From the NCBI GenBank assembly GCA_951406725.2, contig OX597826.1, positions 55,552,001 to 55,616,000 on the forward strand: DNA of 64,000 nucleotides, given 5' to 3'. This document shows positions 27,981 to 64,000 of this stretch, piece by piece. The position numbers and the translations under genes were made by a program. How positions within the stretch are numbered: the stretch's first letter is position 1; each line of letters starts with the position of its first letter. Origin of the DNA: Octopus vulgaris (Eukaryota). Under the pieces are notes generated by a model. That model was not told the origin of the DNA, ran no database searches, and saw nothing but the letters and a program-made list of their open reading frames with translations.

Positions 27981-28419
27981 CGTTTTCGATTATACATCGG
28001 TTTCCAAAGATATTATATGGAAAAATAAAAATCAAGTTGTCATTTTACTCGACTTTACGTTGGTCCACCACAAATATTGGAATCGTAAAATCACTACAAA
28101 ACCATTAAAAGCACATAAAATCATATTACTGTACAATAAATAAGAATAAAAGCATATAAAATCATATTAAAATACGTTCAGTAAATGTTAAGACACACCG
28201 CATCAAGTAGTGTAGCCTAGTGACAGAAATCATGCAATCAGCTGTGTTGCCTTACTTATCGGTCTTTCGGAGCTCATATTGTACTGTCGTTCCAAAATCT
28301 ACTGTTAGGCGTCGTTGTCACTCGTGATTCCTGCAATTGTTTTGAATTCAGATTTTTTTACGTCTGTTTATCGGCTACTTTCTCATTCTCATTCATTTGT
28401 GACTTTATTTTTTGCCTCC

Positions 28420-29455
28420 ATGGCTCCTAAGAAAATTCATAGTGAAAGTGCTAAGCGTCGTGCTGTAACGCTGGAAGATAAACTGGCTATGATAAAACAA
28501 TATGTAAAAAATGAAAAAGTGGTAGCAATTGCACAATATTTTGGACAACTGTATCGACGATTGTACATAATAAGGGCAATATTTTGGCACATATAAAATC
28601 TGAAGCCCAAGGGATGAAGAAGACTGTCGTCAATAACAAAAGAGGTAAGATCTTTGAAGAAATAGAAAGCCTTCTTTCTCTTTGGATTGTTAGGTTGAAT
28701 CGTCAGCGTGCTACTATTAGTCAAGAAACCATTGAAGAGAAAGCGTTGTCTTTGAGGACCTGAAGAAAAAGTATCCAGATGCGAAAGATATAGAATTCAA
28801 GGCAAATCAAAGATGGTTCATGACATTTAAGGAGCGAAGAAGTTGTCACTCCATTAAGCAGCAATGTGAAAGTGCATCAGCTGACGAACAAGCAGAAGCG
28901 GAATTTCCTAATGCATTAAAGAAAATCATTGAAGAAAACGGGTTTCTTTCCAAACATATTTTTCAACGTAGACGAAACTGGATTGTATTGGAAAAAATTG
29001 CCAGACCGTTCATTCATTTCCAAGGAAGAGAAAACTATTTCAGGCTACAAGGTCTCAAAAGAACGTGTGACCATTATGTTGGGAGGTGCAGGAGATTTTG
29101 AGTTAAAGCCATTGCTTGTGAATCGCTGCACACAACACTCGTGCTCTGAAGAACATACCCAAAGCATCTCTCCCTGTTATATGGATGGCTAATTCAAAAG
29201 CATGGGTTACTGTTGTTTTTGAAGATTGATTCCTCAATCATTCTATCCCAGCAGCAAAGAAGTACTGTAAGAAGAGACTTACTTGTAAGGTTTTACTTAT
29301 CTTAGATAATGCTCCTAGCCACCCGCAAAACATCGTAAATTTTGACCCCATCGTTACCGTCGTATACCTCCCTCCGAATACCACGTCTCTTCTGCAGCTA
29401 ATGGATCAGGGAATAATTGCTACCATCAAGCGATGCTATATGAAGCGTACACAAT
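28420..29455 (+). pseudogene. Tigger/pogo transposase (CENP-B-type HTH + DDE_1), frameshifted and 3'-truncated
   Basis: MAPKK..KRRAVTLEDKLAMIK; FKANQRWF..FKER; ESASAD; FNVDETGLYWKKLPDR; KERVTIML; KPLLV; NSKAWVT; VLLILDNAPSHP; YLPPNTTSLLQLMDQGII. Element probably extends upstream to ~27981. Confidence 0.95.
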
Positions 29456-33188: not shown

Positions 33189-33948
33189 AATGTCTCACTA
33201 CCGTTGTCTGTCTGTCTGTCTGTCTGTCAGTCTGTATCAATTCATATATCACACATTTTCCTATCTTTATTTTTATCGCTATATCTTTACATCTCGCGCT
33301 CTTTCCTTTTTAATTCTTTCAATCTTTCGTTCTTTTTCTTTTCCTTCTTTTATATTAAATTCATGCGAATTTCTTTCTTTCTTTATCGTTTTCCTTTTTA
33401 ATTCCTATTCTCTTTACCTTCTTCGTTTCCTTCAAAATTTGTCTTTCTTCATGAGTTACTCTGCTGATTTCTCTTCAACTCTTTTTGCTCTCTATGTCTG
33501 TCTTCTATTTCTTACTTTGGTACTTAATCTTACTTCTCTCTCAGTGCAGTGCCTCTATCTACTGTTCCGTTTATTCGTCTTACTTTTTCTCTTCTCTTTC
33601 GATCTACTGTCATTCTCCCTCCTCCCATCTCTACGTATACATCTTTCGGTATGTCTGTCTGTCTACGTATCTATCTCTCTATCTCTATCTATCTGAGTAT
33701 CTATCTGTCTGTTTGTCTGAATGTCTTTCTATATGCTGCCTATTTCTCTTTCATATACAGCACTATCTATGTATCTGCGTATGTATGTATGTATGTATGT
33801 ATGTATGTATGTATGTATGTATGTATGTATGTATGTATGTATGTATGTATGTATGTATGTATGTATGTATGTATGTATGTATGTATGTATCTACCTACCT
33901 ATCTATCTATCTATATATCTATCTATCTATCTATCTATCTATCAATCA

Positions 33949-34568
33949 ATGGACACGCATCTAAACTATGTGGGGAGAGACAAAAACAGAAGGGGATGCA
34001 AATGCCTCAGAGACCTGCTCAGACGATTCCAACTGTCTGACAGGTACCGACTCGACCACCCAAATGCACCAACGTGGACATGGAGCAACCGCAGTGGGTC
34101 GTCGAGATCGTATCTAGATAGGATACTGTGTAGGACAGTAGACAGGGATAACTTAGGATGTCCACAATTCCACACAGTCAGCTACACGGATCACAAATTC
34201 GTGACGTGTACGCTAGACTTAGATAAGGCACATAGACAGGGTCCTGGTTACTGGAAATTGAACGCATCTTTCTCGTCTAGACAGATTTTCAGAGACAGAA
34301 TCAACACGTTAGTAAAAGGGCTTTAACGGGAGCCATTGTCAACAACAAATGGTGGTTCGCCCTCAAGAGAGCAGTAAAAGCGGAAGCAATTAGATATAGC
34401 CAGGCACTAGCCGTAGATAGAAATAGAGTGGAGGGTGAGTTAGTTAAGAAGTTAGAAGAGGCAATAAGAAGCGGCATCACATCCGACGTTTTAGCGGTGA
34501 GGTTGGCCCTTGACCAACACCCCAACGCCAAACACGAAGGGTGTGCTGTCAGGGCTAGAATGCGTGCT
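33949..34568 (+). mobile_element. Tx1/L1-clade LINE ORF2 fragment (APE endonuclease C-terminus + linker)
   Basis: LSDRYRLDHP..TWTWSN..SRSYLDRIL..SYTDHKFV..GPGYWKLNAS; after one frameshift WWFALKRAVK..IRYS..EGCAVRARMR. Confidence 0.92.
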
Positions 34569-60434: not shown

Positions 60435-60768
60435 AACATCTTCGGTCAGGAATGACGATGGGATTGCATCTAGAAAGTCACCCTCCGAGGTACAAGTCCG
60501 GGTAAGGTTGTTTATGGAAGACCAGAAGTCGCCCATGCATACCAACTTTCCCTCTCTACGCCATTGATGTTATCCAAGGGAAAGGCAAAGGGGCCGATAC
60601 AACTTGGCACCAGTGACGTCGCAACTCATTTCTACAGCTGAGTAAACTGAAGCAAGGTGAAATAAAGTGTCTTGCTCAAGAACACAACACGCAGCCCAGT
60701 CCGGGATTCGAACTCACAACCTCACGGCCGTAAGTTCGACGCTCTAATCACTGAGCCATGCGTCTTCA
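60435..60768 (-). mobile_element. SINE-C (CORE-like) with tail 3
   Basis: Reverse complement of 55432-55770; A box TGGCTCAGTG, B box AGTTCGAATCC. Confidence 0.92.
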
Positions 60769-62977
60769 TTGAGGTTAAAATCTCTATATACACACTGTTC
60801 GATGGCCGTTGATTCATACGAGTTTTTCCACACTTTGACGGGTTACGAGTTTTGTTTTTCATCCCTCGGGTTGTCCAAATCATTCTTCTCATTAAGCAAG
60901 TTCGGTAGGGTTGCCGGTTTAGTCACCGACGACCCGACTATGCGACAGGTTGTACTGGGTTAGATGTTACCAGTAACATTTGAGAGGGACCTGAGATGAA
61001 TAAAGTAGCAGCAGTCAAGTATTAAAATAAATGTATCTCTCTTTCTTCCTCTCTCTCTTTCTTTCTTCATCCCCCCTCTCTTTCGTTCTTTCTTCCTCTC
61101 TCTTTTTTCTCTCTGTCACTCTCTTCTCTCTGTTTCCTTTTTGTCGCTCTTTCTCAGTGACGTTGCACCGTGATAACAATGCCAAGCGACTACTCACATA
61201 TCCCATTTCTCTATGAATAGTTTAAAGTCAATCGAAGAGCCGGCAAATCCCTTGCATAGAAAAATAAAAATAATACGGCAGTGAAACCTGTCGATGATGA
61301 CTCGATGCGCGGCGGAGTACAGAACTGATATAGCAGAATAGAAATAGAATATTCAGATTAATTCTACATGTCTAAGAGATTTAGTAGGTCTTTTAGACCT
61401 GCTAGACCGACACCATATTTTACGTGTACATAATGAAGAGATATTAGTCTAATTAATTCAATGGGGGAAGACATAAAGAAGCAGTACTAAGCCTGACTGT
61501 ATAAACTGCAATACTTTATTCTCAGACCTCTTGATACTGAGTTCAAATAATTCTTGCTTGGACATTTTCGTTATATCTCCTGTCGTAGGGGTCGATAAAA
61601 TAAATGCCAGTTCTCTAAATAGAGTTGATTTAATAAACTGTAACCTTTTCGAGCAACAATCTCATATGTCATTATTAACATGTCTCAGTTGTTGGAATAT
61701 AAACATGTAACATTTTTTAATAAGGCAATAATTTAAGACAAGGTTATTCCTGGAATAATTTCTAGGCTATTAATTAAAGGCTAAATTTTTTTCTGTCACT
61801 AAGTTTTAAATCTTTATTTAATTTCGCTCAAATTACAAACTGTTATAATTTTTATGTTCTATCTACAAAATTATGCTTCAAATAAATGCTGTAAACGGTG
61901 TGTTTTTTACTTATGTTTAAATGTTTAAATATCTTCTCGATGTGGAATCTATTTCGCATTATAATTTAAGAGGATATAATCATACACCCGCCACCAACAC
62001 ACAAACAACCACTCACGCGCATATCTACTACATATGTGGGAACTTCTATCTGTGGGTGTGTTTGTGGAGTTGTTAGCTAACTCCTCCTAAATCGTTTTAT
62101 CGATATTTATGACACTTGACACGAGACTAGAACTCATGTCCGGAGACCTCGTGGCATACTAAGATTGTCGGAAAAAAATCTATAATAGGGCCCTTGAAAG
62201 GATCCTTATATATATCTAATATATTTTATTTAAAAAACTAAGGGAAATAACACATTCGCCCCTGGAAGGGATCCTTAGATATAGCCAAGGGAAATAACCC
62301 ATTCATTTTCCATAATTATTTGGTAAGTATGAAATTGAGTATGCTTATTTCTTAGTATTTGAACTGTTAGAGTTATTTTCGCAATTTATCCAGTACAACT
62401 CTTAAACAAGTAAATAGTATTTTCTTAAACAATAGATCCACTTATTTCGGTTAGTGATTTATTCACGAATATAACAACACTAGCGCTGCTGAGGGTAATA
62501 TTTTCTGGGAACGCACAAAAGCCATTTTCAGAGTTATTTACTTAAATTATTATTATCTCATATCTGATTAGACTCTTATTACGTATGCTTCACGACTTTA
62601 GTATAGATATCTTATTAGCATTTCCTCCTATTTTCCATATACTCTGAGAACGCATTAAAGCCCCTTTCGGAACTACTTTATTTGAATTCTTATTCTCGGG
62701 TAACTAAATGCATGTTATTACAGATAAGACCTACGGTTTCAGAATGAGCTGGGTCTTATTTACTCATCGTTTTCCTCTACCCGTTACTCAGATTATGTTT
62801 AAGGACCGATAGCTCTGCTCTTTCTTTTTCTCTGAAAATACCTTGAGATAATCAACATGTACGTTTCCTTTAGCAACAAAAAACAAACAAACAAAACAAC
62901 TAAGAGGTGAAAAGAGAATTTAGAAAGCAGAAGGACTGGCCAAAGTCTCTGAATCCCATTTAGAAATATAAGAAATA

Positions 62978-62994
62978 TAGTGGTAGTGGTGGTG

Positions 62995-63037
<43 letters not shown>

Positions 63038-63273
63038 CAGCAGCAGCAGTAGAAACAGCAGCGGCAGCATCAGCAACAACAGTAGCAACAGTGGCAGCAG
63101 CAGTATTACTAGTAATAGTAGTAGTATTAGTAGTAATAGCAGCAGCAGCGCCAGCATCAGCAGAAATAGAGGCGGCAGCATCAGCAACTGCAGTAGCAGC
63201 AGTGGTAGCAGCAGAAGTGGCAGCAGCAGCAGCAGTAGTACTATTAGTAGAAGTAGTAGTAGCAGTAGTAGTA
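62978..63273. repeat. (GTG)n/(GTA)n/(GCA)n degenerate microsatellite
   Basis: Directly visible. Confidence 0.95.
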
Positions 63274-63292
63274 GGTGTTTTTGTTATTGTTC

Positions 63293-64000
63293 AAACCAGT
63301 TCAAACTGGTTCAAATGTCAGGAATGTCTGGAATATCAGGAATATCTGGAATGTCAGCAATGTCTGGAATGTCAGAGATCAAAGACGGTGCCGACAAACC
63401 GGTTCAAACCGAATCAAACCGGTTCAAACCGGATCAAACCGGTTCAAATGTCAGGAATGTCTGAGATCAAAGACAGTGCCGACAGAGATCAAAGAGTGTG
63501 CCGACAAAGATCAAAGACGCTGCCGACAAACCGGTTCAAACCAGTTCAAATGTCAAGAATGTCTGAGATCAAAGACGGTGCCGACAGAGATCAAAGAGTG
63601 TGCCAACAAACATCAAAGACGGTGCCGACAAACAGGTTCAAACCGAATCAAACCGGTTCAAACCGGTTCAAACTGGTTCAAACCGGTTCAAGCCGGATCA
63701 AACCGGATCAAACCGGTTCAAACCGGTTCAAACTGGTTCAAACCGGTCCAAATCGGATCAAACCGGATCAAACCGGTTCAAATGTCAGGAATGTCTGAGA
63801 TCAAAGACGGTGCCGACAGAGATCAAAGAGTGTGCCGAAAAGATCAAAGTCGGTGCCGATTAACCGGATCAAATGTCTGGAATGTCAGGAATGTCTGGAA
63901 TGTCAAGATTGTCTAAAATGTCAGGAATGTCACAGATCAAAGACAGTGCCGAGAGATCTCAAAGAGTGTGCTGACAAAGATCAAAGAGGGTGCCGACAAA
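63293..64000. repeat. Complex three-module satellite (10-mer AAACCGGTTC, 9-mer AATGTC(A/T)GG, 22-mer AGATCAAAGA(CG/GT)GTGCCGACA(G/A)); runs off the window end
   Basis: Five visible cycles in fixed order 10-mer block, 9-mer block, 22-mer block, with variable unit numbers. Confidence 0.95.

What the first reader, a model, noticed from the sequence alone, without database searches (positions are those of the whole stretch)
63293..64000. Satellite built from three modules that each spell a signalling transcription-factor site (Grainyhead, TEAD, TCF/LEF) in fixed cyclic order
Seen: units A (AAACCGGTTC), B (AATGTC[A/T]GG) and C (22-mer) always run A>B>C>A, with manual counts of about A2B7C1, A5B2C3, A2B2C3, A15B2C3, A1B7C3; B and C each alternate two variants. 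Established: AACCGGTT is the Grainyhead/GRHL-CP2 consensus, [A/T]GGAATGT (formed across B junctions) is the TEAD/Scalloped consensus, and A[G/C]ATCAAAG is the TCF/LEF consensus; GTCT(G) and GCCGAC also resemble Smad/Mad elements. Roughly 10 sites of each of the three main types lie in 700 bp, the A sites at near-helical 10-bp spacing. Inference: it looks like a natural multimerised reporter, i.e. a copy-number-tunable enhancer, a TF sink, or the regulatory array of a large mobile element sensing Wnt/Hippo/epithelial state. Short motifs can match by chance, but three of three modules matching is striking.
Basis: partly seen in the sequence, partly recalled or inferred. Interest (0 to 1): 0.85.

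Follow-up and report, generated by a model that had tools for sequence, protein, structure and literature searches.

The report
Octopus repeat resembling Wnt/Hippo reporter
This is one ageing copy of a many-copy, octopus-type repeat whose three short units spell binding sites for Wnt, Hippo and Grainyhead/CP2 transcription factors at or near the spacings those factors use, like a natural lab reporter; only the Wnt unit resists a chance explanation, and binding is untested.

Summary
New here: C is a two-part TCF site, an HMG site plus a C-clamp Helper (12 of 13 units), laid out like the synthetic POPHHOP reporter. B's 9-bp period equals the cooperative TEAD double motif. A's 10-bp period fits the CP2/LSF tetramer site. 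The array is multi-copy in runs of three organism labels, and an Octopus vulgaris gene model translates another copy. The family-majority B bases give perfect TEAD doublets, while this copy carries rarer, site-breaking changes. No host element or gene was found, and no genome was held. Best reading (0.45): the enhancer tract of an unidentified mobile element, decaying at this locus. Rivals: neutral compound minisatellite (0.27), host-selected platform (0.15), transposase-binding repeats (0.10). New variant of a known kind.

The parts
63293..64000 (+). Compound A/B/C minisatellite, five cycles, open at the right end
63293..63312 (+). A x2 (10-bp GRH/CP2-like units, both with a CpG-type transition)
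63314..63375 (+). B x7 (9-bp TEAD double-motif period); three site-breaking changes (63335, 63344, 63358) that most family copies lack
63376..63395 (+). C x1 (TCF HMG site + 5 nt + Helper-like GCCGAC)
63396..63527 (+). Cycle 2: A5 (63396-63445), B2 (63447-63463), C3 (63464-63527)
63528..63629 (+). Cycle 3: A2 (63528-63547), B2 (63549-63565), C3 (63566-63629)
63630..63860 (+). Cycle 4: A15 (63630-63779), B2 (63781-63797), C3 (63798-63860)
63861..63999 (+). Cycle 5: A1 (63861-63870), B7 (63872-63933, holds the only two perfect TEAD doublets), C3 (63934-63999, includes the one C unit with both halves broken, at 63956)
63275..63292 (+). 18-bp linker between microsatellite and array; a TG at 63276 could be an element end, but no shared terminus was shown
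62978..63274 (+). (TAG/AGC/AGT)n microsatellite flank; its junction with the array lies on one contig of ordinary depth in run X1

Best explanation
The array is one copy of a dispersed, multi-copy modular repeat of Octopus. Most likely it is the enhancer tract of a mobile element not yet identified (LTR U3, 5' UTR or Helitron-type internal array). SHOWN: structure, multi-copy state, motif matches and spacing, motif-sparing change in C, drift of this copy. INFERRED: (1) one ABC master unit was amplified, with slippage setting the number of units per module; (2) C binds TCF through HMG box plus C-clamp, B binds TEAD/Scalloped as cooperative dimers, A binds CP2/LSF tetramers or Grainyhead dimers; (3) together they switch the element on in Wnt-active, Yorkie-active proliferating cells, so selection acts on the transposing source copies; (4) copies such as this one land in microsatellite-rich DNA and decay.
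For: C: 12 of 13 units keep ASATCAAAG followed 5 nt later by GCCRAnW, the C. elegans Helper consensus (PMC3916239). Orientation is that of the POPHHOP reporter unit and the spacer is one base shorter; 19 of 23 positions match by eye. I infer this is 'AK4'; AK6 is a best binder and AK2-9 is preferred by human TCF1E (PMC4154663). Helper beside HMG in shuffles: 4.6%. Distinct changes that break the motif: 2 of 15 for HMG alone (39% expected, p=0.03), 4 of 15 for HMG+RCCG (p=0.02), 3 of 15 for HMG+GCCRAnW (p=0.0007); those three all lie in one unit. B: the period equals CATTCC-NNN-CATTCC, the functional cooperative spacing (PMC4546604). Its spacer (A/T)GA resembles the CGA of a high-affinity site (bioRxiv 2024.02.22.580842). 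Across the family the consensus base holds 94%, 76% and 98% of depth in X1 at the three places where the window breaks the site. A: the 10-bp period equals CNRG-N6-CNRG (PMC5829564); 14 such pairs. Multi-copy: all modules are covered by many contigs in 4 of 4 runs laid, three organism labels; summed depth in X1 is about 47x (A), 2150x (B) and 200x (C) the junction contig (not a copy number). P0001, an O. vulgaris gene model on a 147-Mb sequence, is a translation of A and many C units.
Against: No host element, terminus, target-site duplication or ORF was found; the window ends inside the array and no genome was held. A and B show no motif-sparing in the window. A-like runs of 3-7 units occur in 9 loci of prokaryote MAGs. 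The Helper misses the fly and human GCCGCC consensus at one base, and I chose the worm consensus after seeing the data. Family-wide C is not clean: a G>T at the last HMG base has 4%, 37% and 19% of depth in X1, X2 and X9 (possibly mis-laid A>B junctions). Three of 6 Helper instances in loose-end consensuses break the Helper, though the HMG half is intact in 3 of 3. Units are related by descent, so the p-values are optimistic. CpG transitions fall on tolerated positions of A and of the Helper. No binding, chromatin or expression data.
Confidence: 0.45

Rival explanations
1. Neutral compound minisatellite. Three slippage-prone, partly self-complementary units were joined once and spread by unequal exchange or passive capture. 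The motif matches are coincidence, even if factors bind incidentally.
For: A- and B-type runs arise where the animal factors are absent or beside the point. A-type runs also appear in many other genomes: 30 of 154 translated hits, including a 162-bp mussel satellite. The strand folds far better than shuffles (z=-7.1). With some 300 motif families (recalled figure) a match of B's strength is expected for any 9-mer, and of A's or C's strength about one time in five. Fixed order follows from a single origin.
Against: C was found nowhere outside Octopus: 0 of 89 B loci, 1 of 154 proteins (P0001), and 2 lone viral matches at chance level. C carries two linked half-sites and its changes fall between them. 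All three periods fit published cooperative spacings. Rough joint figure 2e-5, or about 1e-2 if A and B are granted free.
Confidence: 0.27
2. Host-selected platform. The family is kept by the octopus as copy-number-tunable enhancers, a factor sink, or an rDNA/heterochromatin platform like human HSat3.
For: Present in three organism labels with the same majority sequence. Precedent: HSat3 binds TEAD/YAP (bioRxiv 2024.10.22.616524).
Against: This copy has lost sites relative to the family (9 intact TEAD cores in 20 B units, 2 perfect doublets). The 150 longest complex ORFs of the window gave only transposase relics above Pfam cut-off, though short exons would be missed.
Confidence: 0.15
3. The modules are binding sites for an element-encoded protein (transposase subterminal repeats, foldback-type modular inverted repeats, or a replication-origin array), not for host factors.
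For: Modular short repeats at an apparent element end are typical of foldback and hAT/CACTA elements (recalled). The array starts 18 bp from a microsatellite. One X9 loose end shows B followed by an inverted HMG half.
Against: One transposase would not need three unrelated units, each matching a different host-factor grammar. No terminus shared by copies appears in the rows shown (tables were cut).
Confidence: 0.1
4. Protein-coding repeat, assembly artefact or synthetic reporter contamination.
For: Open frames of 213 and 281 aa cross the array. P0001 is annotated as a protein.
Against: Periods of 10 and 22 shift the frame at every unit. No Pfam match reaches cut-off. P0001 mixes all three frames. 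The array is degenerate and is held by public runs of several studies.
Confidence: 0.03

Closest known systems
Human Satellite 3 as TEAD/YAP platform (bioRxiv 10.1101/2024.10.22.616524; abstract and Discussion read)
   Same: Tandem repeat holding dense TEAD and other signalling-factor motifs.
   Different: HSat3 is a megabase pentamer-derived array with shown binding. This is a compound array of three discrete modules with 9-, 10- and 22-bp periods; binding is untested.
Caenorhabditis Helitron-borne heat-shock-element arrays (PMC6927752; passages read)
   Same: Dispersed repeat copies carrying tandem sites, up to over 100, for a signal-responsive factor.
   Different: One factor there, three here. 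No Helitron termini or Rep/helicase shown here.
Synthetic 6xHMG-Helper (POPHHOP) and TOPFLASH Wnt reporters (PMC3916239, PMC4154663; passages and one section read)
   Same: Tandem HMG+Helper pairs in the same orientation; 19 of 23 positions match unit C by eye.
   Different: Natural, one base shorter spacer, worm-type Helper, interleaved with TEAD and CP2 modules. [quoted passage not shown]
TEAD double motif (PMC4546604; bioRxiv 10.1101/2024.02.22.580842; passages read)
   Same: CATTCC-NNN-CATTCC, 9-bp period.
   Different: Here in runs of up to 7 inside a repeat family. The same unit also arises in unrelated microbial DNA.
CP2/LSF tetramer and GRHL dimer sites (PMC5829564; passages read)
   Same: AACCGGTT and CNRG-N6-CNRG are both present.
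   Different: No motif-sparing in the window, and similar 10-mers occur in prokaryotes.

Membership tests
Bipartite TCF Wnt-response element (HMG + Helper) | HMG consensus site | tested here: met
   ASATCAAAG in 12 of 13 C units
Bipartite TCF Wnt-response element (HMG + Helper) | Helper within about 1-11 nt of the HMG site | tested here: met
   GCCRAnW 12 of 13; RCCG 11 of 13 at that place
Bipartite TCF Wnt-response element (HMG + Helper) | Fly/human long Helper GCCGCC(R) | tested here: not met
   one fixed mismatch, A at unit position 19 in 13 of 13
Bipartite TCF Wnt-response element (HMG + Helper) | TCF binding and Wnt-dependent activity | not testable with these tools
   needs EMSA, CUT&Tag or reporter
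TEAD double motif | Two same-strand CATTCC with 3-bp spacer | tested here: met
   2 perfect doublets in the window; family-majority bases restore them in the first run
TEAD double motif | Substitutions spare the core | tested here: inconclusive
   window: 5 of 6 break; family rows: 2 of 6 variant types in the core against 67% expected, read by hand
GRHL/Grainyhead site array | AACCGGTT kept against mutation | tested here: not met
   10 of 25 exact; 8 of 9 distinct changes break it
CP2/LSF tetramer site | CNRG-N5/6-CNRG | tested here: met
   14 pairs; no depletion of breaking changes, 2 of 9 against 27%
Dispersed repeat family | Many copies at more than one locus | tested here: met
Transposable element (LTR, Helitron, foldback, LINE) | Shared termini, target-site duplication, element ORFs | not testable with these tools
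   window ends in the array; no genome; tables cut, no shared left end in the rows shown
HSat3-like satellite platform | Very long homogeneous array with in vivo factor binding | not testable with these tools
   length beyond 64000 and binding unknown
Protein-coding repeat | Frame-preserving units and a protein family | tested here: not met
   periods 10 and 22; no Pfam match at cut-off

The most novel reading that the evidence does not exclude
An octopus mobile element carries a natural, copy-number-tunable three-input enhancer (TCF with C-clamp Helper, TEAD dimers, Grainyhead/CP2). It has scattered hundreds of such reporters through the genome, and some now tie host genes to Wnt plus Hippo plus epithelial state, for example in wound epidermis and arm regeneration.
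Probability: 0.15. Interest if true: 0.85.

Novelty: new variant of a known kind. Interest (0 to 1): 0.6.

Why it matters
The Wnt literature states that dense clusters of perfect TCF sites are not found in natural Wnt elements (PMC4154663, PMC3916239). A natural tandem HMG+Helper array, interleaved with TEAD doublets and CP2/Grainyhead runs, would be a counter-example and a ready-made record of the binding grammar of lophotrochozoan TCF, whose Helper preference could be read from the repeat. It would give cephalopod biology a candidate native Wnt/Hippo reporter. It also makes testable whether selfish repeats evolve multi-pathway enhancers to target proliferating cells. If neutral, it is a caution: two of the three 'perfect' modules also arise in microbial DNA.

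Tried and rejected
No whole genome was held, so nothing beyond 64000 and no copy map could be read. Earlier findings: five look-ups gave nothing that bears on this. Viral scan for C: 2 lone matches without neighbouring units, taken as chance. Metagenome scan for the B-C junction: 0. Exact A x2.5 in viral contigs and A x2.7 in GTDB: 0 each. Searches for longer or shorter proteins that might link the array to element ORFs gave only a mussel satellite translation and nothing. RNA: no RNA holder on record; run X12 is only guessed to be RNA, and its contigs hold all modules, which is no evidence on expression. No junction-spanning contig was listed for X2, X9 or X12; a hole proves nothing. Smad reading: GTCT/AGAC is a 4-mer common in the window and was set aside. 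A recalled TFCP2L1 motif could not be found in print (0 papers) and is not used as evidence. The inverted-repeat scan of 58-64 kb listed only AT microsatellites among the 25 longest of 609 pairs. No matrix library was available, so consensus strings replaced a PWM scan.

Full report
OBSERVATION. The window is AT- and microsatellite-rich animal DNA. It begins 18 bp after a (TAG/AGC)n tract and runs off the window. Junctions are near-constant (A>B 4 of 5 alike over the last 9 bases, B>C 4 of 5 fit one pattern, C>A 3 of 4), so the fixed order reflects a single ABC origin and is not independent evidence.

MOTIF GRAMMAR. C is more than a TCF site. In 12 of 13 units ASATCAAAG is followed 5 nt later by GCCRAnW, the Helper consensus of C. 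elegans POP-1 (PMC3916239, passages). The same paper gives the synthetic POPHHOP unit, which has the same orientation and a spacer one base longer; by eye 19 of 23 positions match. PMC4154663 (passages and section 7) calls the earlier construct AK5, finds AK6 and FF0 bind best, and cites AK2-9 for human TCF1E; I infer C is AK4. The fly/human long Helper is missed by one fixed base. B has the 9-bp period of the TEAD double motif (PMC4546604, passages), with a spacer like that of a high-affinity site (bioRxiv 2024.02.22.580842, passages). A holds the GRHL palindrome (10 exact) and, through its 10-bp period, the CP2 tetramer site (14 pairs) (PMC5829564, passages).

DO SUBSTITUTIONS SPARE THE SITES? 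Counting distinct changes: in C, 2 of 15 break the HMG site (39% expected, p=0.03), 4 of 15 break HMG+RCCG (p=0.02) and 3 of 15 break HMG+GCCRAnW (p=0.0007; consensus chosen after the fact; all three in unit 63956). The free Helper position shows all four bases. In A, 8 of 9 break AACCGGTT and 2 of 9 break CNRG (no depletion). In B, 5 of 6 break the core. Units share ancestry and CpG transitions fall on tolerated positions, so these p-values are optimistic.

COPIES ELSEWHERE. Of 24 runs listed, 20 hold part of 62300-64000, from 10 studies; the best may be the source sample. I laid 63240-63420 (128 of the 708 array bases plus flank) on 4 of the 24 runs. All modules are covered by many contigs in all four. 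The microsatellite-array junction lies on one X1 contig of depth 46, while summed depth over A, C and B is about 47, 200 and 2150 times that; the tool warns this is no copy number. Where the window's first B run breaks the TEAD site (63335, 63344, 63358), the consensus base has 94%, 76% and 98% of X1 depth, with similar majorities in X2, X9 and X12. So the family majority is a perfect doublet array and this copy has drifted. Against a clean picture: G>T at the last HMG base has 4-37% of depth in the three DNA-type runs, and 3 of 6 Helper instances in loose-end consensuses are broken, with the HMG half intact in 3 of 3. No shared left terminus appears in the rows shown, but 224 loose ends and 6933 pieces were not shown. 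Translating the array as a pseudo-protein found P0001, an Octopus vulgaris 'hypothetical protein' made of A and many C units (26 HMG-half peptides). This places the family in Octopus; the window's own species is inferred, not shown.

CONTROLS AGAINST THE READING. A-type 10-mers are not special to this family: 30 of 154 translated hits carry them, among them a 162-bp Sinanodonta satellite, and 9 loci in prokaryote MAGs carry runs of 3-7, although exact longer runs were absent from GTDB and viral contigs. B-type runs occur in 80 metagenome loci (capped) and 9 viral loci; 36 of 89 lie in Met-Ser-Gly frames of 150 aa or more, and 0 of 89 have a C unit. C is the distinctive part: strong in 1 of 154 proteins, with two lone viral matches. 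Shuffle probabilities are 8e-4 (A), 1e-2 (B), 6e-4 (C) and 0.046 (Helper given HMG). Multiplying by about 300 motif families (recalled figure) and rough period factors gives 2e-5 jointly, or about 1e-2 if A and B are granted free. This is suggestive in a scan of this size, not conclusive.

CONTEXT. Of 440 ORFs of 55 aa or more, 201 passed a complexity filter and 150 were scanned. Only pogo/Tigger-type transposase pieces at 28.5-29.5 kb passed Pfam cut-offs. Short exons would be missed, so a host gene is not excluded. Frames across the array are by-products (periods 10 and 22).

MECHANISM. I favour a mobile element's enhancer tract (0.45): selection on source copies keeps cooperative sites for TCF, TEAD and CP2/Grainyhead, slippage tunes their number, and inserted copies decay. 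The element itself was not found. A neutral minisatellite (0.27), a host-selected platform (0.15) and transposase-binding repeats (0.10) remain open. 'Works like a multimerised Wnt/Hippo reporter' is plausible from sequence; 'is an enhancer' is untested.

NOVELTY. Repeats that carry factor sites are known: HSat3 with TEAD/YAP (abstract and Discussion), Helitron HSE arrays (passages), C. elegans TEs in general (abstract). Four searches (listings and abstract openings only) showed no paper describing this octopus repeat or a natural HMG+Helper/TEAD/CP2 compound array. The library lacks most subscription journals, repeat databases could not be searched, and no supplements were read; a repeat library in a genome paper's supplement may already hold the sequence. 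Verdict: new variant of a known kind, interest 0.6.

Noticed in passing
window 28309-29454: Broken pogo/Tigger-type transposase: CENP-B_N (below cut-off), HTH_Tnp_Tc5 and DDE_1 in separate frames.
   Followed up: partly
window 33721-34500: ORF pieces that read like a LINE endonuclease/RT relic (Tx1-like by recall); no Pfam match.
   Followed up: no
P0005-P0008, P0010, P0098 (unnamed sources): A repeated element in another genome has 3-4 A-type units between a peptide pattern consistent with AGGTCA repeats and, in three copies, one consistent with a TATA box; a promoter-like layout inferred only from translation.
   Followed up: no
P0011, P0012 (Sinanodonta woodiana gene models): Gene models are translations of a 162-bp satellite that holds several A-type 10-mers.
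   Followed up: partly
window 63368-63386, B>C junction: The junction is a quasi-palindrome centred on GATC; in run X9 a loose end shows B followed by an inverted HMG half, possibly a template-switch product.
   Followed up: no
A variant with A at position 8 (8 of 25 units): The variant creates GATCAAA across the unit border, seven bases of the HMG site, so C may have evolved from an A dimer. Speculative.
   Followed up: no
L010, L016, L041, L046, L068 (metagenome contigs): Related loci, apparently non-coding, with variable-length B-type 9-mer arrays; four of the five share one flank; no A or C module.
   Followed up: no
window 62180-62300: Two imperfect copies of a short block in the left flank, seen by eye.
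   Followed up: no
window 60660-60770: SINE-like stretch of the kind common in octopus DNA (recalled, not tested).
   Followed up: no
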